Source: Eledone cirrhosa (Eukaryota). Taken from it: a DNA stretch of 64,000 bases. The notes beneath the pieces are model-generated. The model had not been told where the DNA came from. It searched no databases and was given only the letters and a program-made list of their open reading frames with translations. Both the position numbers and the translations under genes were made by a program. Numbering within the stretch: position 1 is the first letter of the stretch; each line of letters starts with the position of its first letter. Below are positions 1,939-63,687 of this stretch, piece after piece. The DNA is taken from the NCBI GenBank assembly GCA_964016885.1, contig OZ024745.1, positions 43,400,001-43,464,000 on the forward strand, read 5' to 3'.

Positions 1939-4900
1939 CATCATCATCATCATCATCATCAACGTTTAACGTCCGTGTTCCACGCTTGCATGGGTTTGGA
2001 CGGGGGTAGTCCCACTTGAGGCAAGAGTGATTGTCTTGCTCGCATAGGACTGTCTGGCAGGTTTTCTACAGTTGGATGCCCTTCCTAACACCAACCACAT
2101 TTACAGTGTGGGTCTGGGAGGTTTTTACCGTGTTGCCTACACGGCCACATTACAGCGTGGACTGTGTGTTTTTTTGTCGTGACACCTACACGATCTCATT
2201 TGTTTCGGCCTGGATGACGCGGCACCAACATAACTTTACATAGAACGGGGTGGTGTGGATGGGGTGGGGGTGGTGGCGGGACGGGGTGTAGTTTGTTAGA
2301 GATGCCTACTGGCAAGGCGGGTCTTCTCTGTTACTGAGTACCGCCAAAGGTCACGGTCCAGTGACATTGTCTTGGAGAGGTGTAAGTGTGTGAGGTCGGA
2401 GTTTATCAGCTCATCCCATGTTTTTCTAGGTCTGCCTATTCCGTGGCTACCGTCTATCTTTATTGCCCTGCACTTTGTAATACAGCTATCGACTTTCATG
2501 CGCATCACGTGTCCATACCAACGCAGCCTTCTCTCGAGTAAACAACATCTGATCCCTCTTATCTCTAATTTTTTCCTTAGTTCGTTTATGCTTTGCCGTT
2601 CACGTATATTACTGTTACACATCCAGCGGAGCATGCAAGCTTCGTTCCTCTCTAGTCTGCGTATATCCTCTGCACACAATGCCCAGGTCTCACTACCATG
2701 CAACATTGCTGTTCGTATGCAGGCATCGTACAACCTGCCTTTCATTTTTAGGGAGAACCCTTTAGCAGCTAATAGTGGTATAAGCTCTCTGAACTTTTTC
2801 CAACCAGTTCTGACTCTAGCTACAGTACTTTCAGAGCACCCTCCCCCACTGCTGATTTTATCGCCCAGGTAACGGAAGCTGTCCACTATTTCTATAGAAC
2901 CCTCTGCGCAATTGAAAGAGCTAGTATTTTGTGGGCACTTGCTGCTACTTATTGCACCAGAACACCGGCCACATGTAAAGTCTATGTTCTTAGTTAGCTT
3001 ACCTGTGATCCCACTACATCTTTTATGCACCCATACTTTGCATTTAGGACATAAGATGGAGTTTCTACCTACGCCTTTCCTACATACCGAGCACGACCAT
3101 TTCCCAGAAGGGACCGCCGCCTTGTTTTCTTTCCTACAAACTAGAACTTTGGTCTTAGCCAGGTTAATTTTAAGTCCTTTTGACTCTAGGCCGTGCTTCC
3201 ATGTTTGGAATTTCTTCTCTAGCTCGGCCATTGATTCCGCTATGAGTGTCAGGTCGTCTGCGTATAGGAGTTCCCATGGGCAGCCTGTCTTGAACTCCTC
3301 TGTTATAGCCTGAAGGGCAATAATAAATAGTAGGGGGCTGAGAACAGAGCCCTGATGGACGCCAACTTTTACGCTAAACTCTTCACTATATTCGTTGTTA
3401 ATTCTAACCTTGCTGACTGTTTCTTTATACATGGCTTGTATAGCCCTCACAAGCCATTCGTCAACGCCTAGTTTTCTAAGAGCCCACCAGATAATGGAGC
3501 GGGGGACTCTGTCGAAGGCTTTCTCCAGGTCGACAAAAGCTAAGTAGAGGGGTTTACCTTTAGCTAGGTACTTCTCCTGTAGTTGTCGTACTATGAAAAG
3601 AGCGTCTGTGGTGCTTTTGCCTGACACAAACCCGAACTGCATTTCATCTAGATCAATTCTCTCTCTGATTAGTTGCGCTATTACTTTTTCCGTGACCTTC
3701 ATGACCTGGTCGATTAATTTAATGCCTCTATAGTTACTCCTATCTAGGGCGTCTCCTTTACCCTTATAACAGTTAACGATGATGCTGCTATGCCAGTCCT
3801 TCGGAACAACCCCATTCTGTACGACTTGGTTAACTATGCGGGTGACCATGGTGTGTCCCACCGTGCCAGATGCCTTCAGCATCTCAGCAACTATTTCCGA
3901 AGGCCCAGCCGCCTTACCAGTCTTCATATCCTTGATTGCCTTACTTATTATACTCCCCTCGACTAACACTGCTGGTCCCTCTATCGGGTCGATATGGGGG
4001 AGACTGTCTTTCTCCCATTTATTCTCCTCATTTAGTAGCCTTTCATAGTGACACTTCCAAGCTACCTTCTTATCAGTGTCGGTGATGGCAAGTATGCCAT
4101 CATCGTTAAGTACACACTTCTCCCCGACAATATCACGGTTTTCCTTGACGCATTGCCTGGCAATCCTGAACACCTCACGTTTTTGGTCATCGCGTTGTAG
4201 AACATGCTTGAACTTTCTTTCCTCAGCTTCCCTTCTTGCTAAGTACACTTCTCTCCTAGCTTCCCTCCTGGCCACTTGATAGTCTACTCTACTTCCCCCA
4301 TCCCGCCATACTTTCCAAGCCTGCTTTTTGGCCTTAATTGACCCCTCCACCCTATTGTTCCACCACCATGTTACTCTCCTCCTGCCTACAGGCCTGCTCC
4401 AGCCACAGACTTCGTCTGTCGCCAACAGCAGGTTTGCTTTCAGAAATTTCCACTGTCCCTCTATATTGTCCGATTCTAGATGCTCTTCCTTACTGTCGAA
4501 AGCATCAAGTAATATGCTTTGAAATTTATTTCTGGCTGTGGGGTCCTTTAGTTTCCATATTTTCCTCCTGAGGATAGTCCTCTTCTGCTGTCGGGTACGT
4601 CTCGTCCTGACTGTGAGGTCGCTAATTATCAGTCTATGTTGGGAGGTGCATTCTTCATGGGGGAGGGATTTAGTGTTTACAACAGACACTCTGTCACGTC
4701 TTCTGGTAAGGATATAATCTACCTGGCTTGTGTGTTCCCCGGATCTATAGGTAATCAGGTGATTGTCACGTTTTTTGAAGTTAGTGTTACAGATAGTTAG
4801 GTTATTTGCATCACAGTATTCCAGAATTCTGGAGCCTTCCTCATTTCTAGTACCAAACCCATAGCCTCCATGGATTTCGTCGTAGCCGTCACAATGTTGT

Positions 4901-5463
4901 CCAACATGACCATTTAGGTCGCCTGCAATAATTATATAGTCACTGTCAGATATTTGGGAGGTAGTTAGCAACAGTGTCTCATAGAATCTGTCTTTTATAG
5001 TGCCGGGCAGTCCGGATTGGGGTGCGTACGCAGATATTACTGTCACCGTAGTTCTATTGAGGACAAGTCTTATTTTAATTATTCTGTCGTTCACTCTATT
5101 TACGTCTATTATCTTATCTGCCCACTTTTCTGCTACCATGATTCCTACTCCACCCAGCCCATCGTCGTTTCCCACCCAGAAAAGCTTATAACATCGTTTT
5201 TTACCCTCAATGAATCTAGCAGACCCACCCCTCCACCTGGTCTCTTGAATACAACAAACATCGACCTCCTTACGTTCAAGCATTTCTACAACCTCGTTAG
5301 CGCGACCCTTTAGGGTGCCTACATTTATGGTACCAACTCTGAAGTTTTGGGTTGCGTTTGGAGGGTGGGGGTGGTGGGGGGCGGGAGGAGATAGGGTTAT
5401 GTTAGCCATCCGCGGACGAAACAAAGAGGAGTGCTCGCATTCTCGTCCACGAGGTGAATTTGA
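1939..5463 (-). mobile_element. RTE-clade non-LTR retrotransposon (LINE), intact ORF
   Basis: Single APE+RT ORF, ~350-nt 3' UTR, (TGA)n tail at 1939-1960, candidate TSD ctctgtat at 1931-1938 and 5464-5471. Confidence 0.95.
2296..5424 (-). CDS. RTE LINE ORF: AP-endonuclease + reverse transcriptase with embedded PHD-like Cys/His finger
   Basis: 1042-aa ORF (first ATG at 5409). APE motifs GTINVGTL, IQETRW, SAYAP, GDLNGHVG, QVDYIL, SQHRL. RT motifs QFGF, FVDLEKAFD, GVHQGSVLSP, YADD, YLG. C-x2-C...C-x2-C-x4-H-x2-C...C-x2-C insert. Confidence 0.96.
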   Translation of the reverse strand: MFRPRMANITLSPPAPHHPHPPNATQNFRVGTINVGTLKGRANEVVEMLERKEVDVCCIQETRWRGGSARFIEGKKRCYKLFWVGNDDGLGGVGIMVAEKWADKIIDVNRVNDRIIKIRLVLNRTTVTVISAYAPQSGLPGTIKDRFYETLLLTTSQISDSDYIIIAGDLNGHVGQHCDGYDEIHGGYGFGTRNEEGSRILEYCDANNLTICNTNFKKRDNHLITYRSGEHTSQVDYILTRRRDRVSVVNTKSLPHEECTSQHRLIISDLTVRTRRTRQQKRTILRRKIWKLKDPTARNKFQSILLDAFDSKEEHLESDNIEGQWKFLKANLLLATDEVCGWSRPVGRRRVTWWWNNRVEGSIKAKKQAWKVWRDGGSRVDYQVARREARREVYLARREAEERKFKHVLQRDDQKREVFRIARQCVKENRDIVGEKCVLNDDGILAITDTDKKVAWKCHYERLLNEENKWEKDSLPHIDPIEGPAVLVEGSIISKAIKDMKTGKAAGPSEIVAEMLKASGTVGHTMVTRIVNQVVQNGVVPKDWHSSIIVNCYKGKGDALDRSNYRGIKLIDQVMKVTEKVIAQLIRERIDLDEMQFGFVSGKSTTDALFIVRQLQEKYLAKGKPLYLAFVDLEKAFDRVPRSIIWWALRKLGVDEWLVRAIQAMYKETVSKVRINNEYSEEFSVKVGVHQGSVLSPLLFIIALQAITEEFKTGCPWELLYADDLTLIAESMAELEKKFQTWKHGLESKGLKINLAKTKVLVCRKENKAAVPSGKWSCSVCRKGVGRNSILCPKCKVWVHKRCSGITGKLTKNIDFTCGRCSGAISSSKCPQNTSSFNCAEGSIEIVDSFRYLGDKISSGGGCSESTVARVRTGWKKFRELIPLLAAKGFSLKMKGRLYDACIRTAMLHGSETWALCAEDIRRLERNEACMLRWMCNSNIRERQSINELRKKLEIRGIRCCLLERRLRWYGHVMRMKVDSCITKCRAIKIDGSHGIGRPRKTWDELINSDLTHLHLSKTMSLDRDLWRYSVTEKTRLASRHL

Positions 5464-5714
5464 CTCTGTATGTGTATATATATATATATATCATCATTTA
5501 ATGTCCATTTTCCCTGCTAGCAATGGTTAGATGCACTTAAGTGGAGCCACTGGCCTCTTAGTTGAGCCATAACCCTTTCAGTTACCTTCATGATCTGTTC
5601 CATCCACTCAATGTCCCAGTGGTTATCTTTCTCTCTGGTGTGTCTTCCTTTCCTTTGCAACAGTTTACATATGTGTGGAAAAGAAGTGCGTGTGTGTGTG
5701 TATATATATATATA

Positions 5715-16333: not shown

Positions 16334-16446
16334 ATTGTCTTTTCAAGATCTGTCCCAATAATCGTTATTCTGCTCAAAAACAATTCTGGAAAGCAGCTCG
16401 CCATGGCGTAAATGCTACTGATGCTGTGTTACTGAAAAAACTTCAT
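16334..16446 (+). CDS. ITPR: Internal exon of inositol 1,4,5-trisphosphate receptor (suppressor domain)
   Basis: Acceptor tttatatttgcAG, donor GTAAGT. Translates (D)[37 protein letters not shown], matching the ITPR1 segment [39 protein letters not shown] as I recall it. Phase 1 start, phase 0 end. Absent from the ORF track. Confidence 0.95.
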
Positions 16447-38502: not shown

Positions 38503-39497
38503 GTTTAACGTCCATCTTCCACGCTTGCATGGGTTTGGACGGGAGTTTTCCCACTTGAGGCAAGAGTGGTTGTCTTGCTCACATAGGACTGTCTGGCATA
38601 TTTTCTATGGCTGGATGCCCTTCCAAACACCAACCACGTTTACAGTGTGGACTGGGAGGTTTTTACCGTGTTACCTACACGGCTACATTACAGCGTGGAC
38701 TGTGTGTTTTTTTGTCGTTATACCTACACAACCTCATTTGTTTCGGACTGGATGTTGTGGTACCAACATAACTTTACATTGAAAGGGGTGGTGTGGATGG
38801 GGTGGGGGTAGTGGGACGGGGGTGTATTTTTGTTAGAGGTGCCTACTGACTGTAGTAGGTTTCACTTTGTACTTAGGTAAGGCGGGTCTTCTGTATTACT
38901 GTGTAGCGCCAAAGATCTCGATCCAGTGACATTGTCTTGGAGAGGTGTAAGTGTGTGAGGTCGGAATTTATCAAGTCATGCCAGGTTTTTCTGGGTCTGC
39001 CTACTCCGTGGCTACCGTCTATTTTTATTGCCCTGCACTTTTTTATACAGCTGTTGTCTTTCTTGCGCATCACGTGACCGTACCAACGTAGTCTTCTCTC
39101 GAGTAAACAACATCTGATCCCTCTTATTTCTAATTTTCCCCTTAGTTCGTTTATGCTTTGCTGTTCTCGTATATTACTATTACATATCCAGCGGAGCATG
39201 CAAGCTTCGTTCCTCTCCAGTCTGCGTATATCCTCTGCACGCAATGTCCAGGTCTTACTGCCATGTAACATTGCTGTTCGTATGCAGGCATCATACAACC
39301 TGCCTTTCATATTTAGAGAGAAGCCTTTAGCGGTTAATAGTGGTATAAGCTCTCTGAACTTTTTCCATCCAGTTCTGACTCTAGCTACTGTACTTTCAGA
39401 GCACCCTCCACCACTGCTGATTTTGTCACCCAAGTAACGGAAGGTGTCCACTATTTCTATAAAACCATCTGTGCAATGGAATGAGCTAGTATTCTGT
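38470..39497 (-). mobile_element. 5'-truncated RTE LINE, diverged relative of 1939-5463
   Basis: 192-aa ORF 38873-39451 is highly similar to the C-terminus of the intact ORF; 3' UTR and (TGA)n tail; flanked by (TA)n on both sides. Confidence 0.93.
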
Positions 39498-39819
39498 ATA
39501 TATATATATAGGCCTTGTAAAAACTTAGTGGCTATTATATTACGCCATCATGGCACTGTCACTAGTTGGTCATAGTCCCAACTAAAGCACATTCTCTTCT
39601 CTTTGGTGTTTTGGGGAGCTCAAGAGAAGGGAGATATGTATGAAGTTATGGGTGTCTGGCAAGTGATGATTTGATAGGGTGATGAGTAAGAGGAAGGATG
39701 TGACTGATAGTATAGTGGAAGAGGGGATATAATGGTGGGGTGTGTGGATGGTGCAGTCAATAACATTGTGGGTGTAGTGATAGAGAAAATAACTAAAATG
39801 TGTTACATTAGAGAATTAT

Positions 39820-43011: not shown

Positions 43012-43290
43012 ATATATATATGTATATATATATATATGTATATATATATATGTATATATATATATATGTATATATATATATGTATATATATATATGTGTA
43101 TATATATATATGTATATATATATGTATATATATATATATATGTATATATATATGTATGTATATATATATGTACATATATATGTATGTATATATATATATA
43201 TGTATATGTATATATATGTATATGTATATATATGTATATGTATGTATATGTATATATATGTATATGTATATATATGTATATGTATATATA
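43012..43290. repeat. Compound (TA)n/TG microsatellite
   Basis: Direct inspection. Confidence 0.95.
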
Positions 43291-43436
43291 TTCATTCAGG
43301 TTTGAGGTTCACCACTGTATAGAGCTGGTCTATTCCGTATGGTCAATCGAATGCAATAATATAGAGAGTACTCAACGCAAGGCAGTTCAACCGTCTTTGT
43401 TTTTGTAGTTGGTGGTGCTATTACGGAGTTAAATTT

Positions 43437-43945
43437 TATAATGAAATGACAGGAGGCTGGATTTGTGTAAATCCTTGAAAGGTTTATTATACTATGATCA
43501 TTTCAATGACCGGGTTCCGTATGAATCCGGTGATATCATCCGGTGATATCATCCGGTGATATCATCCGGTGATATCATCTTCTTCTTTCTTCCCCCTTCT
43601 TCTCTCTCCTTCCTTTCTTTCTTTCTTTTACCTTGTGTCATGGGATCGACGTTAACTTATGTTCCCATCCCTTTCTGTTTTCGTTTATCTGACCGGTAGT
43701 AGCATACTATAAACTTTAGCCACGTCACTCCAGGGCGACCGGCTGAGGTTGAAGGAACAGAATAACGGTCGCCCTCGGGTCCCCGATTTTCAGCCCCATG
43801 GATTTTATCTATTACATTCACGTATTATATTTCGAATACCTGATGATATCACCGGATTCATACGGAACCCGGTCATTGAAATGATCATAGTATAATAAAC
43901 CTTTCAAGGATTTACACAAATCCAGCCTCCTGTCATTTCATTATA
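43437..43945. mobile_element. Penelope-like terminal-repeat remnant with 104-bp perfect inverted repeat
   Basis: Arms 43437-43540 and 43842-43945; 13-bp unit x4 at 43525-43576; hammerhead in the right arm. Confidence 0.7.
43836..43893 (+). ncRNA. Minimal (dimer-type) hammerhead ribozyme motif
   Basis: Stem I auac/guau; CUGAUGA 43840-43846; stem II accgg-a-uuc/gaa-c-ccggu; GAAA 43878-43881; palindromic stem III AUGAUCAU; AUA cleavage triplet ending 43889. Confidence 0.68.
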
Positions 43946-43950
43946 TTATA

Positions 43951-44046
43951 TTGACTTTGCCTTTCATCCTTACGGGGTCGATAAAATAAAGTACCAGTAA
44001 TGCACTGGGTAATTGCTGGCCTTGTGCCTAAAGTAGAAACAATTAT
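43951..44046 (+). mobile_element. 5'-truncated Nin/Deu-like SINE
   Basis: gactttgcctttcatccttacggggtcgataaaataaagtacc...gtagaaacaattat. Confidence 0.88.
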
Positions 44047-46767: not shown

Positions 46768-47197
46768 ATATATATATAGAGTATATATATTATATATATA
46801 TATAATATATATATATATAGAGTATATATATAATATATATATATATAGTATATATATAATATATATATGTAGAGTATATATATAATATATATATGTAGAG
46901 TATATATATAATATTTATATATATAGTATATATATATATATATATCTATATATAATATATTTATAGTATATATCTAATATATTTATAGTATATATCTAAT
47001 ATATTTATAGTATATATCTAATATATTTATAGTTTATATCTAATATATTTATAGTATATATATAATATATATATAGTATATATATAATATATATATAGTA
47101 TATATATAATATATATATAGTATATATATAATATATATATAGTATATATATAATATATATATAGTATATATCTAATATATATATAGTATATATCTAA
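44047..47197. repeat. TA-rich compound micro/minisatellite field (includes SINE tail at 44534-44625 and a short unique island at 44950-45085)
   Basis: TATG-type units to 44533, then (TA)n punctuated by AAT, AGAGT and TCTAA. Confidence 0.93.
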
Positions 47198-49009
47198 CCC
47201 TAGATAGGAGTAACTATAGAGGCATTAAATTAATCGACCAGGTCATGAAGGTCACGGAAAAAGTAATAGCGCAACTAATCAGAGAGAGAATTGATCTAGA
47301 TGAAATGCAGTTCGGGTTTGTGTCAGGCAAAAGCACCACAGACGCTCTTTTCATAGTACGACAACTACAGGAGAAGTACCTAGCTAAAGGTAAACCCCTC
47401 TACTTAGCTTTTGTCGACCTGGAGAAAGCCTTCGACAGAGTCCCCCGCTCCATTATCTGGAGGGCTCTTAGAAAACTAGGCGTTGACGAATGGCTTGTGA
47501 GGGCTATGCAAGCCATGTATAAAGAAACAGTCAGCAAGGTTAGAATTAACAACGAATATAGTGAAGAGTTTAGCGTAAAAGTTGGCGTCCATCAGGGCTC
47601 TGTTCTCAGCCCCCTACTATTTATTATTGCCCTTCAGGCTATAACAGAGGAGTTCAAGACAGGCTGCCCATGGGAACTCCTATACGCAGACGACCTGACA
47701 CTCATAGCGGAATCAATGGCCGAGCTAGAGAAGAAATTCCAAACATGGCTGCACGGCCTAGAGTCAAAAGGACTTAAAATTAACCTGGCTAAGACCAAAG
47801 TTCTAGTTTGTAGGAAAGAAAACAAGGCGGCGGTCCCTTCTGGGAAATGGTCGTGCTCGGTATGTAGGAAAGGCGTAGGTAGAAACTCCATCTTATGTCC
47901 TAAATGCAAAGTATGGGTGCATAAAAGATGTAGTGGGATCACAGGTAAGCTAACTAAGAACATAGACTTTACATGTGGCCGGTGTTCTGGTGCAATAAGT
48001 AGCAGCAAGTGCCCACAAAATACTAGCTCTTTCAATTGCGCAGAGGGTTCTATAGAAATAGTGGACAGCTTCCGTTACCTGGGCGATAAAATCAGCAGTG
48101 GGGGAGGGTGCTCTGAAAGTACTGTAGCTAGAGTCAGAACTGGTTGGAAAAAGTTCAGAGAGCTTATACCACTATTAGCTGCTAAAGGGTTCTCCCTAAA
48201 AATGAAAGGCAGGTTGTACGATGCCTGCATACGAACAGCAATGTTGCATGGTAGTGAGACCTGGGCATTGTGTGCAGAGGATATACGCAGACTAGAGAGG
48301 AACGAAGCTTGCATGCTCCGCTGGATGTGTAACAGTAATATACGTGAACGGCAAAGCATAAACGAACTAAGGAAAAAATTAGAGATAAGAGGGATCAGAT
48401 GTTGTTTACTCGAGAGAAGGCTGCGTTGGTATGGACACGTGATGCGCATGAAAGCCGATAGCTGTATTACAAAGTGCAGGGCAATAAAGATAGACGGTAG
48501 CCACGGAATAGGCAGACCTAGAAAAACATGGGATGAGCTGATAAACTCCGACCTCACACACTTACACCTCTCCAAGACAATGTCACTGGACCGTGACCTT
48601 TGGCGGTACTCAGTAACAGAGAAGACCCGCCTTGCCAGTAGGCATCTCTAACAAAATACACCCCTCCCGCCGCCACCCTCACCCCATCCACACCACCCCG
48701 TTCTATGTAAAGTTATGTTGGTGCCGCGCCATCGAGGCCGAAACAAATGAGATCGTGTAGGTGTCACGACAAAAAAACACACAGTCCACGCTGTAATGTG
48801 GCCGTGTAGGCAACACGGTAAAAACCTCCCAGACCCACACTGTAAATGTGGTTGGTGTTAGGAAGGGCATCCAACTGTAGAAAACCTGCCAGACAGTCCT
48901 ATGCGAGCAAGACAATCACTCTTGCCTCAAGTGGGACTACCCCCGTCCAAACCCATGCAAGCGTGGAACACGGACGTTAAACGTTGATGATGATGATGAT
49001 GATGATGAT
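47198..49009 (+). mobile_element. 5'-truncated RTE LINE, near-identical to 1939-3749
   Basis: Homology starts at ccctagatagg; same 3' UTR and (TGA)n tail; candidate TSD atctaa at 47192-47197 and 49008-49013. Confidence 0.96.
47245..48651 (+). pseudogene. Truncated RTE reverse transcriptase ORF (no endonuclease)
   Basis: 468 aa, differing from the intact ORF at 4 residues I can see (W>R, I>M, K>L, V>A). Confidence 0.9.
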
Positions 49010-50743: not shown

Positions 50744-53700
50744 ATAGGGAACATAGCCCTGGGAACATTGTTATACAGTCCTTCTGAACAATGTAAATAG
50801 GGAACATAGCCCTGGGAACATTGTTATACAGTCCTTCTGAACAATGTAAATAGGGAACATAGCCCAAGGAACATTGCTATACAGTCCTTCTGAACAATGT
50901 TAATAGGGAACATAGCCCAAGGAACATTGCTATACAGTCCTTCTGAACAATGTAAATAGGGAACATAGCCCAAGGAACATTGCTATACAGTCCTTCTGAA
51001 CAATATAAATAGGGAACATAGCCCAAGGAACATTGCTATACAGTCCTTCTGAACAATGTAAATAGGGAACATAGCCCTGGGAACATTGTTATACAGTCCT
51101 TCTGAACAATGTAAATAGGGAACATAGCCCAAGGAACATTGCTATACAGTCCTTCTGAACAATGTTAATAGGGAACATAGCCCAAGGAACATTGCTATAC
51201 AGTCCTTCTGAACAATGTAAATAGGGAACATAGCCCAAGGAACATTGCTATACAGTCCTTCTGAACAATGTTAATAGGGAACATAGCCCAAGGAACATTG
51301 CTATACAGTCCTTCTGAACAATGTAAATAGGGAACATAGCCCAAGGAACATTGCTATACAGTCCTTCTGAACAATGTTAATAGGGAACATAGCCCAAGGA
51401 ACATTGTTATACTGTCCTTCTGAACAATGTTAATAGGGAACATAGCCCAAGGAACATTGCTATACAGTCCTTCTGAACAATGTTAATAGGGAACATAGCC
51501 CAAGGAACATTGCTATACAGTCCTTCTGAACAATGTAAATAGGGAACATAGCCCAAGGAACATTGCTATACAGTCCTTCTGAACAATGTTAATAGGGAAC
51601 ATAGCCCAAGGAACATTGTTATACTGTCCTTCTGAACAATGTTAATAGGGAACATAGCCCAAGGAACATTGCTATACAGTCCTTCTGAACAATGTTAATA
51701 GGGAACATAGCCCAAGGAACATTGCTATACAGTCCTTCTGAACAATGTTAATAGGGAACATAGCCCAAGGAACATTGTTATACTGTCCTTCTGAACAATG
51801 TTAATAGGGAACATAGTCCAAGGAACATTGCTATACAGTCCTTCTGAACAATGTTAATAGGGAACATAGCCCAAGGAACATTGCTATACAGTCCTTGTGA
51901 ACAATGTTAATAGGGAACATAGCCCAAGGAACATTGCTATACAGTTCTTCTGAACAATGTTAATAGGGAACATAGCCCAAGGAACATTGCTATACAGTTC
52001 TCCTGAACAATGTTAATAGGGAACATAGCCCAAGGAACATTGCTATACAGTCCTTCTGAACAATATTAATAGGGAACATAGCCCAAGGAACATTGCTATA
52101 CAGTCCTTCTGAACAATGTTAATAGGGAACATAGCCCAAGGAACATTGTTATACTGTCCTTCTGAACAATGTTAATAGGGAACATAGCCCAAGGAACATT
52201 GCTATACAGTCCTTCTGAACAATGTTAATAGGGAACATAGCCCAAGGAACATTGCTATACTGTCCTTCTGAACAATGTTAATAGGGAACATAGCCCAAGG
52301 AACATTGCTATACAGTCCTTCTGAACAATGTTAATAGGGAACATAGCCCAAGGAACATTGTTATACTGTCCTTCTGAACAATGTTAATAGGGAACATAGC
52401 CCAAGGAACATTGTTATACTGTCCTTCTGAACAATGTTAATAGGGAACATAGCCCAAGGAACATTGCTATACTGTCCTTCTGAACAATGTAAATAGGGAA
52501 CATAGCCCAAGGAACATTGTTATACTGTCCTTCTGAACAATGTTAATAGGGAACATAGCCCAAGGAACATTGCTATACAGTCCTTCTGAACAATGTAAAT
52601 AGGGAACATAGCCCAAGGAACATTTTTATACTGTCCTTCTGAACAATGTTAATAGGGAACATAGCCCAAGGAACATTGCTATACAGTCCTTCTGAACAAT
52701 GTAAATAGGGAACATAGCCCAAGGAACATTGCTATACTGTCCTTCTGAACAATGTTAATAGGGAACATAGCCCAAGGAACATTGTTATACAGTCCTTCTG
52801 AACAATGTTAATAGGGAACATAGCCCAAGGAACATTGTTATACAGTCCGTCTGAACAATGTAAATAGGGAACATTGCTATACAGTCCTTCTGAACAATGT
52901 TAATAGGGAACATAGCCCAAGGAACATTGCTATACAGTCCTTCTGAACAATGTTAATAGGGAACATAACCCAAGGAACATTGCTATACTGTCCTTCTGAA
53001 CAATGTAAATAGGGAACATAGCCCAAGGAACATTGTTATACAGTCCTTCTAAACAATGTTAATAGGGAACATAGCCCAAGGAACATTGCTATACTGTCCT
53101 TCTGAACAATGTTAATAGGGAACATAGCCCAAGGAACATTGTTATACTGTCTTTCTGAACAATGTAAATAGGGAACATAGCCCAAGGAACATTGCTATAC
53201 AGTCCTTCTGAACAATGTTAATAGGGAACATAGCCCAAGGAACATTGTTATACAGTCCTTCTGAACAATGTTAATAGGGAACATAGCCCAAGGAACATTG
53301 CTATACTGTCCTTCTGAACAATGTTAATAGGGAACATAGCCCAAGGAACAATGTTATACTGTCCTTCTGAACAATGTAAATAGGGAACATAGCCCAAGGA
53401 ACATTGTTATACAGTCCTTCTGAACAATGTTAATAGGGAACATAGCCCAAGGAACATTGTTATACTGTCCTTCTGAACAATGTTAATAGGGAACATAGCC
53501 CAAGGAACATTGTTATACAGTCCTTCTGAACAATGTTAATAGGGAACATAGCCCAAGGAACATTGTTATACAGTCCTTCTGAACAATGTTAATAGGGAAC
53601 ATAGCCCAAGGAACATTGCTATACTGTCCTTCTGAACAATGTTAATAGGGAACATAGCCCAAGGAACATTGTTATACAGTCCTTCTGAACAATGTTAATA

Positions 53701-56700
53701 GGGAACATAGCCCAAGGAACATTGTTATACAGTCCGTCTGAACAATGTAAATAGGGAACATAGCCCAAGGAACATTGCTATACAGTCCTTCTGAACAATG
53801 TTAATAGGGAACATAGCCCAAGGAACATTGCTATACAGTCCTTCTGAACAATGTTAATAGGGAACATAACCCAAGGAACATTGCTATACTGTCCTTCTGA
53901 ACAATGTAAATAGGGAACATAGCCCAAGGAACATTGTTATACAGTCCTTCTAAACAATGTTAATAGGGAACATAGCCCAAGGAACATTGCTATACAGTCC
54001 TTCTGAACAATGTTAATAGGGAACATAGCCCAAGGAACATTGCTATACAGTCCTTCTGAACAGTGTAAATAGGGAACATAGCCCAAGGAACATTGTTATA
54101 CTGTCCTTCTGAACAATGTAAATAGGGAACATAGCCCAAGGAACATTGTTATACTGTCCTTCTGAACAATGTTAATAGGGAACATAGCCCAAGGAACATT
54201 GCTATACAGTCCTTCTGAACAATGTTAATAGGGAACATAGCCCAAGGAACATTGCTATACAGTCCTTCTGAACAATGTTAATAGGTAACATAGCCCAAGG
54301 AACATTGCTATACATTCCTTCTGAACAATGTTAATAGGGAACATAGCCCAAGGAACATTGTTATACTGTCCTTCTGAACAATGTTAATAGGGAACATAGC
54401 CAAAGGAACATTGCTATACAGTCCTTCTGAACAATGTAAATAGGGAACATAGCCCAAGGAACATTGCTATACTGTCCTTCTGAACAATGTTAATAGGGAA
54501 CATAGCCCAAGGAACATTGTTATACTGTCCTTCTGAACAATGTAAATAGGGAACATAGCCCAAGGAACATTGTTATACAGTCCTTCTGAACAATGTAAAT
54601 AGGGAACATAGCCCAAAGAACATTGTTATACAGTCCTTCTGAACAATGTTAATAGGGAACATAGCCCAAGGAACATTGTTATACAGTCCTTCTGAACAAT
54701 GTTAATAGGGAACATAGCCCAAGGAACATTGTTATACTGTCCTTCTGAACAATGTTAATAGGGAACATAGCCCAAGGAACATTGTTATACTGTCCTTCTG
54801 AACAATGTTAATAGGGAACATAGCCCAAGGAACATTGCTATACTGTCCTTCTGAACAATGTAAATAGGGAACATAGCCCAAGGAACATTGTTATACTGTC
54901 CTTCTGAACAATATTAATAGGGAACATAGCCCAAGGAACATTGCTATACAGTCCTTCTGAACAATGTAAATAGGGAACATAGCCCAAGGAACATTTTTAT
55001 ACTGTCCTTCTGAACAATGTTAATAGGGAACATAGCCCAAGGAACATTGCTATACAGTCCTTCTGAACAATGTAAATAGGGAACATAGCCCAAGGAACAT
55101 TGCTATACTGTCCTTCTGAACAATGTAAATAGGGAACATAGCCCAAGGAACATTGTTATACTGTCCTTCTGAAAAATGTTAATAGGGAACATAGCCCAAG
55201 GAACATTGCTATTCTGTCCTTCTGAACAATGTTAATAGGGAACATAGCCCAAGGAACATTGTTATACTGTCTTTCTGAACAATGTAAATAGGGAACATAG
55301 CCCAAGGAACATTGCTATACAGTCCTTCTGAACAATGTTAATAGGGAACATAGCCCAAGGAACATTGTTATACAGTCCTTCTGAACAATGTTAATAGGGA
55401 ACATAGCCCAAGGAACATTGCTATACTGTCCTTCTGAACAATGTTAATAGGGAACATAGCCCAAGGAACAATGTTATACTGTCCTTCTGAACAATGTAAA
55501 TAGGGAACATAGCCCAAGGAACATTGCTATACAGTCCTTCTGAACAATGTTAATAGGGAACATAGCCCAAGGAACATTGTTATACAGTCCTTCTGAACAA
55601 TGTTAATAGGGAACATAGCCCAAGGAACATTGTTATACTGTCCTTCTGAACAATGTTAATAGGGAACATAGCCCAAGGAACATTGTTATACAGTCCTTCT
55701 GAACAATGTTAATAGGGAACATAGCCCAAGGAACATTGTTATACAGTCCTTCTGAACAATGTTAATAGGGAACATAGCCCAAGGAACATTGCTATACTGT
55801 CCTTCTGAACAATGTTAATAGGGAACATAGCCCAAGGAACATTGTTATACAGTCCTTCTGAACAATGTTAATAGGGAACATAGCCCAAGGAACATTGTTA
55901 TACAGTCCTTCTGAACAATGTAAATAGGGAACATAGCCCAAGGAACATTGTTATACTGTCCTTCTGAACAATGTTAATAGGGAACATAGCCCAAGGAACA
56001 TTGCTATACAGTCCTTCTGAACAATGTTAATAGGGAACATAACCCAAGGAACATTGCTATACTGTCCTTCTGAACAATGTAAATAGGGAACATAGCCCAA
56101 GGAACATTGTTATACAGTCCTTCTAAACAATGTTAATAGGGAACATAGCCCAAGGAACATTGCTATACAGTCCTTCTGAACAATGTTAATAGGGAACATA
56201 GCCCAAGGAACATTGCTATACAGTCCTTCTGAACAGTGTAAATAGGGAACATAGCCCAAGGAACATTGTTATACTGTCCTTCTGAACAATGTAAATAGGG
56301 AACATAGCCCAAGGAACATTGCTATACAGTCCTTCTGAACAATGTTAATAGGGAACATAGCCCAAGGAACATTGTTATACTGTCCTTGTGAACAATGTTA
56401 ATAGGGAACATAGCCCAAGGAACATTGCTATACAGTCCTTCTGAACAATGTTAATAGGGAACATAGCCCAAGGAACATTGCTATACAGTCCTTCTGAACA
56501 ATGTTAATAGGTAACATAGCCCAAGGAACATTGTTATACTGTCCTTCTGAACAATGTTAATAGGGAACATAGCCCAAGGAACATTGTTATACAGTCCTTC
56601 TGAACAATGTAAATAGGGAACATAGCCCAAGGAACATTGCTATACAGTCCTTCTGAACAATGTAAATAGGGAACATAGCCCAAGGAACATTGCTATACTG

Positions 56701-59700
56701 TCCTTCTGAACAATGTAAATAGGGAACATAGCCCAAGGAACATTGTTATACTGTCCTTCTGAAAAATGTTAATAGGGAACATAGCCCAAGGAACATTGCT
56801 ATACTGTCCTTCTGAACAATGTTAATAGGGAACATAGCCCAAGGAACATTGTTATACTGTCTTTCTGAACAATGTAAATAGGGAACATAGCCCAAGGAAC
56901 ATTGCTATACAGTCCTTCTGAACAATGTTAATAGGGAACATAGCCCAAGGAACATTGTTATACAGTCCTTCTGAACAATGTTAATAGGGAACATAGCCCA
57001 AGGAACATTGCTATACTGTCCTTCTGAACAATGTTAATAGGGAACATAGCCCAAGGAACAATGTTATACTGTCCTTCTGAACAATGTAAATAGGGAACAT
57101 AGCCCAAGGAACATTGCTATACAGTCCTTCTGAACAATGTTAATAGGGAACATAGCCCAAGGAGCATTGTTATACAGTCCTTCTGAACAATGTTAATAGG
57201 GAACATAGCCCAAGGAACATTGTTATACTGTCCTTCTGAACAATGTTAATAGGGAACATAGCCCAAGGAACATTGTTATACAGTCCTTCTGAACAATGTT
57301 AATAGGGAACATAGTCCAAGGAACATTGTTATACAGTCTTTCTGAACAATGTTAATAGGGAACATAGCCCAAGGAACATTGCTATACTGTCCTTCTGAAC
57401 AATGTTAATAGGGAACATAGCCCAAGGAACATTGTTATACAGTCCTTCTGAACAATGTTAATAGGGAACATAGCCCAAGGAACATTGTTATACAGTCCGT
57501 CTGAACAATGTAAATAGGGAACATTGCTATACAGTCCTTCTGAACAATGTTAATAGGGAACATAGCCCAAGGAACATTGCTATACAGTCCTTCTGAACAA
57601 TGTTAATAGGGAACATAACCCAAGGAACATTGCTATACTGTCCTTCTGAACAATGTAAATAGGGAACATAGCCCAAGGAACATTGTTATACAGTCCTTCT
57701 AAACAATGTTAATAGGGAACATAGCCCAAGGAACATTGCTATACAGTCCTTCTGAACAATGTTAATAGGGAACATAGCCCAAGGAACATTGCTATACAGT
57801 CCTTCTGAACAGTGTAAATAGGGAACATAGCCCAAGGAACATTGTTATACTGTCCTTCTGAACAATGTAAATAGGGAACATAGCCCAAGGAACATTTTTA
57901 TACTGTCCTTCTGAACAATGTTAATAGGGAACATAGCCCAAGGAACATTGCTATACAGTCCTTCTGAACAATGTAAATAGGGAACATAGCCCAAGGAACA
58001 TTGCTATACTGTCCTTCTGAACAATGTAAATAGGGAACATAGCCCAAGGAACATTGTTATACTGTCCTTCTGAAAAATGTTAATAGGGAACATAGCCCAA
58101 GGAACATTGCTATACTGTCCTTCTGAACAATGTTAATAGGGAACATAGCCCAAGGAACATTGTTATACAGTCCTTCTGAACAATGTTAATAGGGAACATA
58201 GCCCAAGGAACATTGTTATACAGTCCTTCTGAACAATGTTAATAGGGAACATAGCCCAAGGAACATTGTTATACTGTCCTTCTGAACAATGTTAATAGGG
58301 AACATAGCCCAAGGAACATTGCTATACAGTCCTTCTGAACAATGTTAATAGGGAACATAGCCCAAGGAACATTGCTATACAGTCCTTCTGAACAATGTTA
58401 ATAGGGAACATAGCCCAAGGAACATTGCTATACAGTCCTTCTGAACAATGTTAATAGGGAACATAGCCCAAGGAACATTGTTATACTGTCCTTCTGAACA
58501 ATGTTAATAGGGAACATAGCCCAAGGAACATTGCTATACAGTCCTACTGAACAATGTTAATAGGGAACATAGCCCAAGGAACATTGCTATACAGTCCTTC
58601 TGAACAATGTTAATAGGGAACATAGCCCAAGGAACATTGCTATACAGTCCTTGTGAACAATGTTAATAGGGAACATAGCCCAAGGAACATTGCTATACAG
58701 TTCTTCTGAACAATGTTAATAGGGAACATAGCCCAAGGAACATTGCTATACAGTTCTTCTGAACAATGTTAATAGGGAACATAGCCCAAGGAACATTGCT
58801 ATACAGTCCTTCTGAACAATGTTAATAGGGAACATAGCCCAAGGAACATTGCTATACAGTCCTTCTGAACAATGTTAATAGGGAACATAGCCCAAGGAAC
58901 ATTGTTATACTGTCCTTCTGAACAATGTTAATAGGGAACATAGCCCAAGGAACATTGCTATACAGTCCTTCTGAACAATGTTAATAGGGAACATAGCCCA
59001 AGGAACATTGCTATACTGTCCTTCTGAACAATGTTAATAGGGAACATAGCCCAAGGAACATTGCTATACAGTCCTTCTGAACAATGTTAATAGGGAACAT
59101 AGCCCAAGGAACATTGTTATACTGTCCTTCTGAACAATGTTAATAGGGAACATAGCCCAAGGAACATTGTTATACTGTCCTTCTGAACAATGTTAATAGG
59201 GAACATAGCCCAAGGAACATTGCTATACTGTCCTTCTGAACAATGTAAATAGGGAACATAGCCCAAGGAACATTGTTATACTGTCCTTCTGAACAATATT
59301 AATAGGGAACATAGCCCAAGGAACATTGCTATACAGTCCTTCTGAACAATGTAAATAGGGAACATAGCCCAAGGAACATTGCTATACAGTCCTTCTGAAC
59401 AATGTAAATAGGGAACATAGCCCAAGGAACATTTTTATACTGTCCTTCTGAACAATATTAATAGGGAACATAGCCCAAGGAACATTGCTATACAGTCCTT
59501 CTGAACAATGTAAATAGGGAACATAGCCCAAGGAACATTTTTATACTGTCCTTCTGAACAATGTTAATAGGGAACATAGCCCAAGGAACATTGCTATACA
59601 GTCCTTCTGAACAATGTAAATAGGGAACATAGCCCAAGGAACATTGCTATACAGTCCTTCTGAACAATGTAAATAGGGAACATAGCCCAAGGAACATTGC

Positions 59701-62700
59701 TATACTGTCCTTCTGAACAATGTAAATAGGGAACATAGCCCAAGGAACATTGTTATACTGTCCTTCTGAAAAATGTTAATAGGGAACATAGCCCAAGGAA
59801 CATTGCTATACTGTCCTTCTGAACAATGTTAATAGGGAACATAGCCCAAGGAACATTGTTATACTGTCTTTCTGAACAATGTAAATAGGGAACATAGCCC
59901 AAGGAACATTGTTATACAGTCCTTCTGAACAATATAAATAGGGAACATAGCCCAAGGAACATTGCTATACAGTCCTTCTGAACAATGTTAATAGGTAACA
60001 TAGCCCAAGGAACATTGCTATACTGTCCTTCTGAACAATGTAAATATCGAACATAGCCCGAGGAACATTGTTATACTGTCCTTCTGAACAATATAAATAG
60101 GGAACATAGCCCAAGGAACATTGCTATACAGTCCTTCTGAACAATGTTAATAGGGAACATAGCCCAAGGAACATTGTTATACAGTCCTTCTGAACAATGT
60201 TAATAGGGAACATAGCCCAAGGAACATTGCTATACTGTCCTTCTGAACAATGTTAATAGGGAACATAGCCCAAGGAACAATGTTATACTGTCCTTCTGAA
60301 CAATGTAAATAGGGAACATAGCCCAAGGAACATTGCTATACAGTCCTTCTGAACAATGTTAATAGGGAACATAGCCCAAGGAACATTGTTATACAGTCCT
60401 TCTGAACAATGTTAATAGGGAACATAGCCCAAGGAACATTGTTATACTGTCCTTCTGAACAATGTTAATAGGGAACATAGCCCAAGGAACATTGTTATAC
60501 AGTCCTTCTGAACAATGTTAATAGGGAACATAGCCCAAGGAACATTGTTATACAGTCCTTCTGAACAATGTTAATAGGGAACATAGCCCAAGGAACATTG
60601 CTATACTGTCCTTCTGAACAATGTTAATAGGGAACATAGCCCAAGGAACATTGTTATACAGTCCTTCTGAACAATGTTAATAGGGAACATAGCCCAAGGA
60701 ACATTGTTATACAGTCCTTCTGAACAATGTAAATAGGGAACATAGCCCAAGGAACATTGCTATACAGTCCTTCTGAACAATGTTAATAGGGAACATAGCC
60801 CAAGGAACATTGCTATACAGTCCTTCTGAACAATGTTAATAGGGAACATAACCCAAGGAACATTGCTATACTGTCCTTCTGAACAATGTAAATAGGGAAC
60901 ATAGCCCAAGGAACATTGTTATACAGTCCTTCTAAACAATGTTAATAGGGAACATAGCCCAAGGAACATTGCTATACAGTCCTTCTGAACAATGTTAATA
61001 GGGAACATAGCCCAAGGAACATTGCTATACAGTCCTTCTGAACAGTGTAAATAGGGAACATAGCCCAAGGAACATTGTTATACTGTCCTTCTGAACAATG
61101 TAAATAGGGAACATAGCCCAAGGAACATTGCTATACAGTCCTTCTGAACAATGTTAATAGGGAACATAGCCCAAGGAACATTGTTATACTGTCCTTCTGA
61201 ACAATGTTAATAGGGAACATAGCCCAAGGAACATTGCTATACAGTCCTTCTGAACAATGTTAATAGGGAACATAGCCCAAGGAACATTGCTATACAGTCC
61301 TTCTGAACAATGTTAATAGGTAACATAGCCCAAGGAACATTGCTATACATTCCTTCTGAACAATGTTAATAGGGAACATAGCCCAAGGAACATTGTTATA
61401 CTGTCCTTCTGAACAATGTTAATAGGGAACATAGCCAAAGGAACATTGCTATACAGTCCTTCTGAACAATGTAAATAGGGAACATAGCCCAAGGAACATT
61501 GCTATACTGTCCTTCTGAACAATGTTAATAGGGAACATAGCCCAAGGAACATTGTTATACTGTCCTTCTGAACAATGTAAATAGGGAACATAGCCCAAGG
61601 AACATTGTTATACAGTCCTTCTGAACAATGTTAATAGGGAACATAGCCCAAGGAACATTGTTATACAGTCCTTCTGAACAATGTTAATAGGGAACATAGC
61701 CCAAGGAACATTGTTATACAGTCCTTCTGAACAATGTAAATAGGGAACGTAGCCCAAGGAACATTGCTATACAGTCCTTCTGAACAATGTAAATAGGGAA
61801 CATAGCCCAAGGAACATTGCTATACAGTCCTTCTGAACAATGTAAATAGGGAACATAGCCCAAGGAACATTGCTATACAGTCCTTCTGAACAATGTAAAT
61901 AGGGAACATAGCCCAAGGAACATTGTTATACTGTCCTTCTGAACAATGTAAATAGGGAACATAGCCCAAGGAACATTGCTATATAGTCCTTCTGAACAAT
62001 GTAAATAGGGAACATAGCCCAAGGAACATTGTTATACTGTCCTTCTGAACAATGTTAATAGGGAACATAGCCCAAGGAACATTGCTATACAGTCCTTCTG
62101 AACAATGTAAATAGGGAACATAGCCCAAGGAACATTGTTATACAGTCCTTCTGAACAATGTTAATAGGGAACATAGCCCAAGGAACATTGCTATACTGTC
62201 CTTCTGAACAATGTAAATAGGGAACATAGCCCAAGGAACATTGTTATACAGTTCTTCTGAACAATGTTAATAGGGAACATAGCCCAAGGAACATTGTTAT
62301 ACAGTCCTTCTGAACAATGTTAATAGGGAACATAGCCCAAGGAACATTGTTATACAGTCCTTCTGAACAATGTTAATAGGGAACATAGCCCAAGGAACAT
62401 TGTTATACTGTCCTTCTGAACAATGTTAATAGGGAACATAGCCCAAGGAACATTGTTATACTGTCCTTCTGAACAATGTTAATAGGGAACATAGCCCAAG
62501 GAACATTGCTATACAGTCCTTCTGAACAATGTTAATAGGGAACATAGCCCAAGGAACATTGTTACAGTCCTTCTGAACAATGTTAATAGGGAACATAGCC
62601 CAAGGAACATTGTTATACAGTCCTTCTGAACAATGTAAATAGGGAACATAGCCCAAGGAACATTGCTATACAGTCCTTCTGAACAATGTTAATAGGGAAC

Positions 62701-63687
62701 ATAGCCCAAGGAACATTGTTACAGTCCTTCTGAACAATGTTAATAGGGAACATAGCCCAAGGAACATTGTTATACTGTCCTTCTGAACAATGTTAATAGG
62801 GAACATAGCCCAAGGAACATTGCTATACAGTCCTTCTGAACAATGTAAATAGGGAACATAGCCCAAGGAACATTGTTATACAGTCCTTCTGAACAATGTT
62901 AATAGGGAACATAGCCCAAGGAACATTGTTATACAGTCCTTCTGAACAATGTTAATAGGGAACATAGCCCAAGGAACATTGTTATACTGTCCTTCTGAAC
63001 AATGTTAATAGGGAACATAGCCCAAGGAACATTGCTATACTGTCCTTCTGAACAATGTTAATAGGGAACATAGCCCAAGGAACATTGTTATACAGTCCTT
63101 CTGAACAATGTAAATAGGGAACATAGCCCAAGGAACATTGTTATACAGTCCTTCTGAACAATATAAATAGGGAACATAGCCCAAGGAACATTGCTATACA
63201 GTCCTTCTGAACAATGTTAATAAATAGGTAACATAGCCCAAGGAACATTGCTATACTGTCCTTCTGAACAATGTAAATATCGAACATAGCCCGAGGAACA
63301 TTGTTATACTGTCCTTCTGAACAATATAAATAGGGAACATAGCCCAAGGAACATTGTTATACAGTCCTTCTGAACAATATAAATAGGGTACATAGCCCAA
63401 GGAACATTGCTATACTGTCCTTCTGAACAATGTAAATAGGGTACATATCCCAAGGAACATTGTTATACTGTCCTTCTGAACAATGTAAATAGGGAACATA
63501 GCCCAAGGAACATTGTTATACTGTCCTTCTGAACAATGTAAATAGGGTACATAGCCCAAGGAACATTGTTATACAGTCCTTCTGAACAATATAAATAGGG
63601 AACATAGCCCAAGGAACATTGTTATACTGTCCTTCTGAACAATGTAAATAGGGAACATAGCGCAAGGAACATTGTTCTACTGTCCTT
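50744..63687. repeat. Satellite array, 53-bp unit x ~244
   Basis: Consensus gggaacatagcccaaggaacattgYtatacWgtccttctgaacaatgtWaata; period checked at 50868 vs 50921; both array ends lie in the window. Confidence 0.98.

What the first reader, a model, noticed from the sequence alone, without database searches (positions are those of the whole stretch)
43437..43945. Hammerhead paired with its own antisense copy in a perfect 104-bp inverted repeat
Seen: the right arm holds a hammerhead with a perfect palindromic stem III (AUGAUCAU). The left arm is its exact reverse complement but stops inside the CUGAUGA box, so only the + strand carries a full core. CpGs are preserved and the arms are identical, implying youth. 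The spacer has another 10-bp hairpin (agggcgaccg/cggtcgccct). Known: Penelope-like insertions often have an inverted truncated terminal repeat, and their minimal hammerheads cleave as dimers. Inference: in the ITPR pre-mRNA the upstream arm could sequester the ribozyme in a 104-bp duplex, a built-in off switch that editing might loosen. No ORF is present, so it may be a non-autonomous retrozyme-like unit.
Basis: partly seen in the sequence, partly recalled or inferred. Interest (0 to 1): 0.72.

Follow-up and report, generated by a model that had tools for sequence, protein, structure and literature searches.

The report
Two-ended Penelope retrotransposon insertion scar
The mirror-image ribozyme is one cut-short insertion of an abundant, protein-less Penelope-like jumping element in an intron of a calcium-channel (ITPR) gene; across its copies one end nearly always stops about 56 and the other about 205 bases past the ribozyme, likely because the RNA is copied from two fixed start points into the two ends of a DNA cut, so the hairpin is likely a by-product and not a switch.

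Summary
The 104-bp inverted repeat and the type I minimal hammerhead are real, but the left arm runs 148 nt further (43289-43540). Both arms are 5'-truncated copies of a young, ORF-less 2.9-kb Penelope-like family (1,697 candidates in this genome), joined head to head in a 51.6-kb ITPR intron. Copies end at two fixed sites, about +56 and +205 from the ribozyme cut site, in (TA)n. Of inverted family-A insertions, 49 of 50 carry one end of each kind, and the two arms share variants (212 of 215). The best model is two primings on one source RNA. The stop inside CUGAUGA is chance: 35 of 45 insertions hold the whole ribozyme on both arms. The monomer is predicted to misfold even without the arm, and editing would destroy its core before opening the duplex, so an off-switch is not supported. 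Sister families conserve the ribozyme and an upstream hairpin. Hydra-clade elements with intact ORFs share the leader geometry and are the likely enzyme source; no exact partner was found. The inverted layout with a one-sided tail is published, and this scan noted the two-site rule before on other DNA. No RNA data were available.

The parts
43289..43540 (-). Left arm: antisense, 5'-truncated element copy, element coordinates about +205 to -47 relative to H17; its outer end is the distal end site (S2)
43289..43436 (-). 148-nt 'tail' between the two end sites, present on this arm only
43437..43540 (-). Part of the left arm that is exactly complementary to 43842-43945
43525..43579 (.). 13-nt unit x 4.2 at the inversion junction (three extra copies); likely repeated slip-back during copying or later replication slippage
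   Evidence: mechanism inferred
43578..43945 (+). Right arm: sense, 5'-truncated copy, element -311 to +56; its outer end is the proximal end site (S1)
43732..43775 (+). GC-rich 10-bp hairpin, kept in four sister families; 5 of 10 pairs show changes on both sides
43836..43893 (+). Type I minimal hammerhead: 4-bp stem I, long interrupted stem II, palindromic stem III, predicted cut after 43889
   Evidence: 57 of 58 columns identical between families A and B
43012..43291 (.). (TA/TG)n microsatellite at the left junction (target)
43954..44040 (+). Unrelated abundant short repeat, lacking its 5' part, abutting the right end after about 8 AT bases
16334..16446 (+). ITPR exon upstream of the 51.6-kb host intron (16447 to window-equivalent 68012)

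Best explanation
This is one head-to-head, doubly truncated insertion of an ORF-less Penelope-like element whose copies end at two fixed sites, likely made when an enzyme borrowed from a Hydra-clade element cut a TA repeat and primed copying of the same source RNA from both DNA ends, one at +56 and one at +205. Shown: the family, the two end sites, one-of-each pairing, shared variants between arms, variable inner junctions with short overlaps. Inferred: each end site is a reverse-transcription start; both cDNAs run upstream over the hammerhead, stop early and are joined through a few complementary bases, each then templating the other's second strand. Because the hammerhead lies just upstream of +56, such insertions automatically pair it with its antisense copy. 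In the ITPR pre-mRNA it is predicted to stay silent.
For: Two end classes only: 24 ends at 205-206 and 23 at 56-63 among 47 terminal ends, overlapping loci not merged. Pairing: family A 47 of 47 by script; by eye L034 and L088 also mixed and L112 not, so 49 of 50. Families B 9 of 9, C 7 of 8, D 2 of 2; ORF-bearing E and F 8 of 8. Arms of one insertion differ by 1.11% against 2.55 +/- 0.23% for shuffled pairs (lowest of 1000: 1.70%) and agree at 212 of 215 polymorphic calls. In the window neither arm contains the other, so neither is a fold-back copy. PMC11167929 (parts 1-2 of 4 read): a Poseidon enzyme cuts and extends both strands, starts at two internal sites that bound the tail, is predicted dimeric, and needs no hammerhead cleavage in vitro. 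Leaders of E/F align with A/B/D at z 3.4-6.7 in 11 of 12 comparisons; 9 control comparisons give z -1.8 to 0.5.
Against: No biochemical or RNA evidence here. Two exceptions with two distal ends (L112, L268), both with very short inverted pieces. 18 profile hits were left unclassed and one A/D pair split by a TA run was dropped. Queries for B-D included the tail, so one distal end was selected there. Shared variants cannot separate one RNA molecule from two RNAs of one source or from later conversion. No autonomous element with a near-identical leader was found; E/F were chosen after seeing motifs by eye, one comparison was not significant (z 1.5), and the profile search did not recover them. 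About 20 inspected insertions show no long inverted arm. The tail (148 nt) is far longer than the published 30-40 bp.
Confidence: 0.72

Rival explanations
1. One priming only (at +205); the +56 end is made by the endonuclease cutting the element's own AT-rich site while resolving an intermediate, with the inversion arising by template switching or self-priming on an antisense RNA.
For: PMC8557442 (passages) ascribes the tail to endonuclease-mediated resolution; PMC3846280 (passages) proposes self-priming on an antisense template. The +56 site is AT-rich. This would also give one end of each kind.
Against: Inner junctions are mostly not palindromes and the two arms stop at unrelated points. Insertions without an inverted arm end at either site in the same way. 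Either arm can be the long one. PMC11167929 maps both tail boundaries as reverse-transcription starts.
Confidence: 0.2
2. A selected regulatory switch: the upstream arm holds an active ribozyme off in the ITPR pre-mRNA and A-to-I editing releases it.
For: Ribozyme is sense to ITPR; the duplex is predicted at -188 kcal/mol.
Against: Same layout at dozens of unrelated loci; 10 of 41 insertions also have identical arms; monomer active fold is 10 kcal/mol above the best fold and stem III pairing probability is 0.000; editing simulation; PMC4209133 (parts 1-2 of 4 read) found no cleavage by a single minimal hammerhead.
Confidence: 0.03
3. A retrozyme that spreads through self-cleaved, circular RNA monomers.
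For: ORF-less, hammerhead under strong constraint, partial tandems at 2.9-kb spacing. Two copies are almost exactly one unit long (L111, L114).
Against: None of 44 mapped family-A 5' ends lies between -6 and +49 of the cut site; many copies read through one or two intact hammerheads; ends are at +56/+205; the two unit-length copies start at the end sites, not at the cut.
Confidence: 0.04
4. A DNA transposon or MITE with terminal inverted repeats.
For: Perfect inverted arms.
Against: Arm length varies from under 20 nt to over 1 kb, the two termini are different sequences, copies are 5'-truncated and form direct partial tandems; the hammerhead is the most conserved part.
Confidence: 0.01

Closest known systems
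EN+ Penelope-like insertion units with partial tandem pLTRs, an inverted 5'-truncated copy and a one-sided tail (PMC8557442 Fig. 2 legend; PMC3846280)
   Same: Same layout, (TA)n targets, tail on one end only, hammerhead in the pLTR.
   Different: No ORF; tail 148 nt instead of 30-40 bp; here the one-sidedness is counted (49 of 50) and tied to two fixed sites.
Hydra clade of C-terminal EN+ PLEs (PMC8557442 section 11; Hydra-1_Obim in its supplement)
   Same: The ORF-bearing families E (892-894 aa) and F in this genome carry RWK and DKT, E also the CxCX5C linker; their leaders have a hammerhead, a first end site about +56, a second at about +159 (E) or +192 (F), and a short hairpin motif shared with our tail.
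   Different: Our families encode nothing and are only distantly alike to E/F leaders; the hammerhead sequences differ.
Poseidon element PAc of Anolis (PMC11167929)
   Same: Two internal start sites that define the tail, AT-rich target, both strands extended, hammerhead dispensable in vitro.
   Different: Different clade; that paper saw no start-site difference between strands and did not report pairing within single insertions in the parts read.
Minimal hammerheads of metazoan PLEs (PMC4209133)
   Same: Type I, short helix I, large helix II, extra base after position 9, palindromic helix III; opposite-strand pairs 100-700 bp apart are mentioned there.
   Different: Lacks the G10.1-C11.1 pair (A or G against U here); helix II base is mismatched.
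Animal non-LTR retrozymes (bioRxiv 10.64898/2026.07.22.740005, part 1 of 5 read)
   Same: Non-autonomous, type I hammerhead, derived from PLEs.
   Different: Those are short tandem arrays; this unit is 2.9 kb, dispersed, truncated and inverted like a PLE.
L1 twin priming (recalled, not read)
   Same: Two primings on one RNA give an inverted insertion joined by microhomology.
   Different: In L1 the second start is variable and arms barely overlap; here both starts are fixed and the arms overlap widely.

Membership tests
Penelope-like element (non-autonomous) | Partial tandems forming pLTRs, 5' truncation | tested here: met
   2,905-2,908-bp unit with direct repeats in L031-L033; variable 5' ends
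Penelope-like element (non-autonomous) | Inverted 5'-truncated copy and one-sided tail | tested here: met
   tail is 148 nt, longer than published
Penelope-like element (non-autonomous) | Type I hammerhead in the pLTR | tested here: met
   (sequence and predicted structure only)
Penelope-like element (autonomous) | RT plus GIY-YIG ORF | tested here: not met
   longest stop-to-stop frame 99 aa; the 30 best tblastn hits among 235 ORFs from stored loci were all the family's own frames
Hydra clade dependence | Cis-sequences shared with an RWK/DKT/CxCX5C element; (TA)n target | tested here: inconclusive
   weak but significant leader similarity and same two-site geometry; no near-identical partner found; mobilisation in trans untested
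Hammerhead ribozyme | Catalytic core, three helices, NUH site | tested here: met
   no Rfam hit at gathering score; G10.1-C11.1 absent
Hammerhead ribozyme | Self-cleavage | not testable with these tools
   monomer predicted misfolded, dimer within 3-8 kcal/mol of competing folds
Non-LTR retrozyme | Short head-to-tail arrays with a hammerhead in each unit | tested here: not met
   2.9-kb unit, mostly one to two units, truncated or inverted
Non-LTR retrozyme | Circular or cut-site-bounded RNA | not testable with these tools
   no RNA run available
TIR DNA transposon / MITE | Fixed, identical terminal inverted repeats | tested here: not met
   termini differ (+56 against +205) and arm length varies

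The most novel reading that the evidence does not exclude
Penelope-like elements integrate by programmed twin priming: a dimeric enzyme holds one leader RNA and assigns its two fixed start sites to the two ends of a double-strand cut, so the long-known inverted pLTR and one-sided tail are one product; the 148-nt spacing and protein-free leader of this family define a minimal cis-element that would write any upstream RNA into (TA)n from both ends.
Probability: 0.55. Interest if true: 0.6.

Novelty: new member of a known kind. Interest (0 to 1): 0.3.

Why it matters
The locus itself is ordinary: one of well over a thousand candidate copies, likely inert in its intron. The family data matter more. 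How Penelope-like elements form inverted ends and tails is named as an open question in PMC8557442, and a near-absolute one-of-each-site rule with arms from one source gives a direct, testable prediction for the in vitro system of PMC11167929. It also explains why ribozyme-plus-antisense hairpins are common in this genome without any regulatory role.

Tried and rejected
Rfam gathering scan: no hit. Partner hunt: the Neptune-like family of L126-L155 and 30 GIY-YIG loci carry other hammerheads or none detected and show no leader similarity. Sister families B, C, D showed no element-linked ORF in the 90 loci fetched. A motif scan of stored loci printed nothing because the spacing was mis-set. A genome-wide look for a closer autonomous partner through its leader motif is missing, so that question stays open. 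Sequencing runs: no RNA holder listed; run X15 laid nothing, which proves nothing. The unique junction 43550-43624 had almost no cover in four laid runs; these look like a diverged population or species, so neither polymorphism nor assembly accuracy could be judged. A stop signal at the GC hairpin: 9 of 35 5' ends fall in one 20-nt window at its 3' foot, p = 0.003 against uniform but 0.054 against exponential decay; kept as a hint only. My first reading of the left flank as a decayed LINE fragment was wrong; it is the antisense tail. Pfam gave no family above cut-off for the E protein. A target-site duplication cannot be read in microsatellite flanks. One search failed on a parsing error and was rerun. 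bioRxiv supplements were closed; they may list related families.

Full report
Observation. The arms 43437-43540 and 43842-43945 are exact reverse complements over 104 nt. The right arm completes a type I hammerhead: stem I 43836-39/43890-93, CUGAUGA 43840-46, a long interrupted stem II, GAAA 43878-81, palindromic stem III and H17 at 43889. The other strand lacks the first two core bases. Rfam finds nothing at gathering score. ITPR is on the + strand; the element lies in a single intron of 51.6 kb between the exon at 16334-16446 and the next in-frame exon at window-equivalent 68013. The genome is 3.0 Gb. That it is an octopus is my inference from recall, an Argonauta homolog and earlier notes.

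What it belongs to. A search with 43580-43945 gave 1,697 candidates; the 40 scored are 98-100% identical. Candidates are not copy numbers. Full units are 2,905-2,908 bp, arranged as repeat-internal-repeat, with no frame over 99 aa. Numbered from H17, the window's right arm covers -311 to +56 and the left arm, in antisense, about +205 to -47. The 104-bp repeat is simply their overlap. Three extra copies of a 13-nt segment lie at the junction; similar short duplications of about 12-36 nt occur at several other junctions.

Two fixed ends. All 47 terminal ends seen in the first 60 short loci fall at about +56 (23) or +205 (24), nearly all running into (TA)n; overlapping loci were not merged there. 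After removing duplicates, 47 of 47 contiguous inverted family-A insertions have one end of each class. By eye, L034 and L088 follow the rule and L112 breaks it with a piece under 20 nt, giving 49 of 50. Free mixing would give about half. The A queries did not favour either end. Sister ORF-less families found through incidental hits give 9 of 9 (B), 7 of 8 (C) and 2 of 2 (D), with the caveat that their queries included the tail. Eighteen hits were unclassed and one pair split by a TA run was dropped.

One source per insertion. In 41 of 45 insertions with an overlap of 30 nt or more (9,989 bp), arms differ by 1.11%, against 2.55% for arms paired at random, and agree at 212 of 215 calls at 15 polymorphic sites. 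Ten of 41 have identical arms, so the window copy is young but not special. This cannot tell one molecule from two molecules of one source. In the window each arm holds sequence missing from the other, which excludes fold-back copying of one arm from the other.

The stop inside CUGAUGA. Of 45 insertions, 35 hold the whole hammerhead on both arms, 6 have one arm cut within it and 4 lack it on one arm (positions entered by hand). It is a chance truncation. None of 44 mapped A 5' ends lies between -6 and +49, and long copies read through intact hammerheads, so the copied RNA was usually uncut.

The ribozyme. It is the most constrained part: 57 of 58 columns identical between A and B, against 76 of 127 upstream and 117 of 149 in the tail. 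That shows a role for the element, not that it cleaves. The monomer's active fold is -4.9 kcal/mol against -14.9 for a fold that pairs the core with the stem III palindrome; the seven-sequence consensus fold is also the non-catalytic one. An active-type dimer scores -26.4 against -29.8 for two monomers and -33.9 for the best dimer. The arm duplex is -188. With half of the A residues edited it is still -78 to -164, while all five core A residues survive with probability 0.03.

Enzyme source. Neptune-like families did not match. Families E and F have ORFs with RWK and DKT, E intact at 892-894 aa with a CxCX5C linker, the Hydra-clade marks in PMC8557442. Their leaders carry a hammerhead, a first end at about +56, a second at about +159 or +192, and 8 of 8 inverted insertions use one of each. 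Leader similarity to A/B/D is weak but above shuffles in 11 of 12 comparisons and absent in 9 controls; I chose E and F after seeing the motifs. By eye, a similar short hairpin motif stands in the published Hydra-1_Obim leader and at the end of the neighbouring Hydra record. No close partner was found.

Literature seen. PMC8557442: passages, section 11, supplement passages. PMC11167929: parts 1-2 of 4. PMC4209133: parts 1-2 of 4. PMC3846280: passages. bioRxiv 10.64898/2026.07.22.740005: part 1 of 5. PMC6962438: two passages, of no bearing. The inverted copy, one-sided tail and opposite-strand hammerhead pairs are all in print. Five searches listed no paper whose title or abstract start reports one-of-each-site pairing; subscription papers are not covered. 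Earlier unreviewed notes of this scan state the same rule for other families; I reached it before reading them and do not count them as support.

Verdict. A real but ordinary scar of a Penelope-like insertion; new member of a known kind; interest 0.3. Identity as a Penelope-like insertion is near certain; the twin-site mechanism is inferred (about 0.7); the off-switch is unlikely (0.03).

Noticed in passing
window 50744-63687: A 53-bp satellite of about 244 copies at 95% identity fills 13 kb of the ITPR intron.
   Followed up: no
window 2296-5490 (-), 47176-48651 (+), 38873-39547 (-): An intact-looking 1,064-aa endonuclease plus reverse-transcriptase LINE frame (RTE-like by recall) and two truncated copies.
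   Followed up: no
window 23582 (+): Another type I hammerhead-like motif of a different family; relatives occur in several stored loci.
   Followed up: no
stored loci: At least a dozen other hammerhead families with palindromic stem III, many as opposite-strand pairs, lie in the fetched DNA.
   Followed up: partly
L092:6800-6870: A family-A copy that jumps from -56 to about +46, losing the whole hammerhead yet ending at the proximal site in (TA)n.
   Followed up: no
L111:4170-7043, L114:3901-7177: Copies whose 5' end lies at the same end site one unit upstream (+53, +199), with (TA)n on both sides.
   Followed up: partly
family A, element -117 to -98: 9 of 35 5' truncations cluster at the 3' foot of the conserved GC hairpin; suggestive only.
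   Followed up: partly
L081, L095: Distal-site arms that stop at +50 and about +60, next to the proximal site, as if blocked by the other cDNA.
   Followed up: no
runs X5, X7, X11: Contigs of three other coded organisms hold pieces of the leader, with A-like and B-like variants; one 72-nt piece over the hammerhead is identical.
   Followed up: partly
L126-L155: A very large young Neptune-like family (25,261 candidates) with open frames up to about 1,300 aa.
   Followed up: partly
window 43954-44040: The abundant short repeat on the right lacks the 5' part present in most other window copies; order of events unknown.
   Followed up: partly
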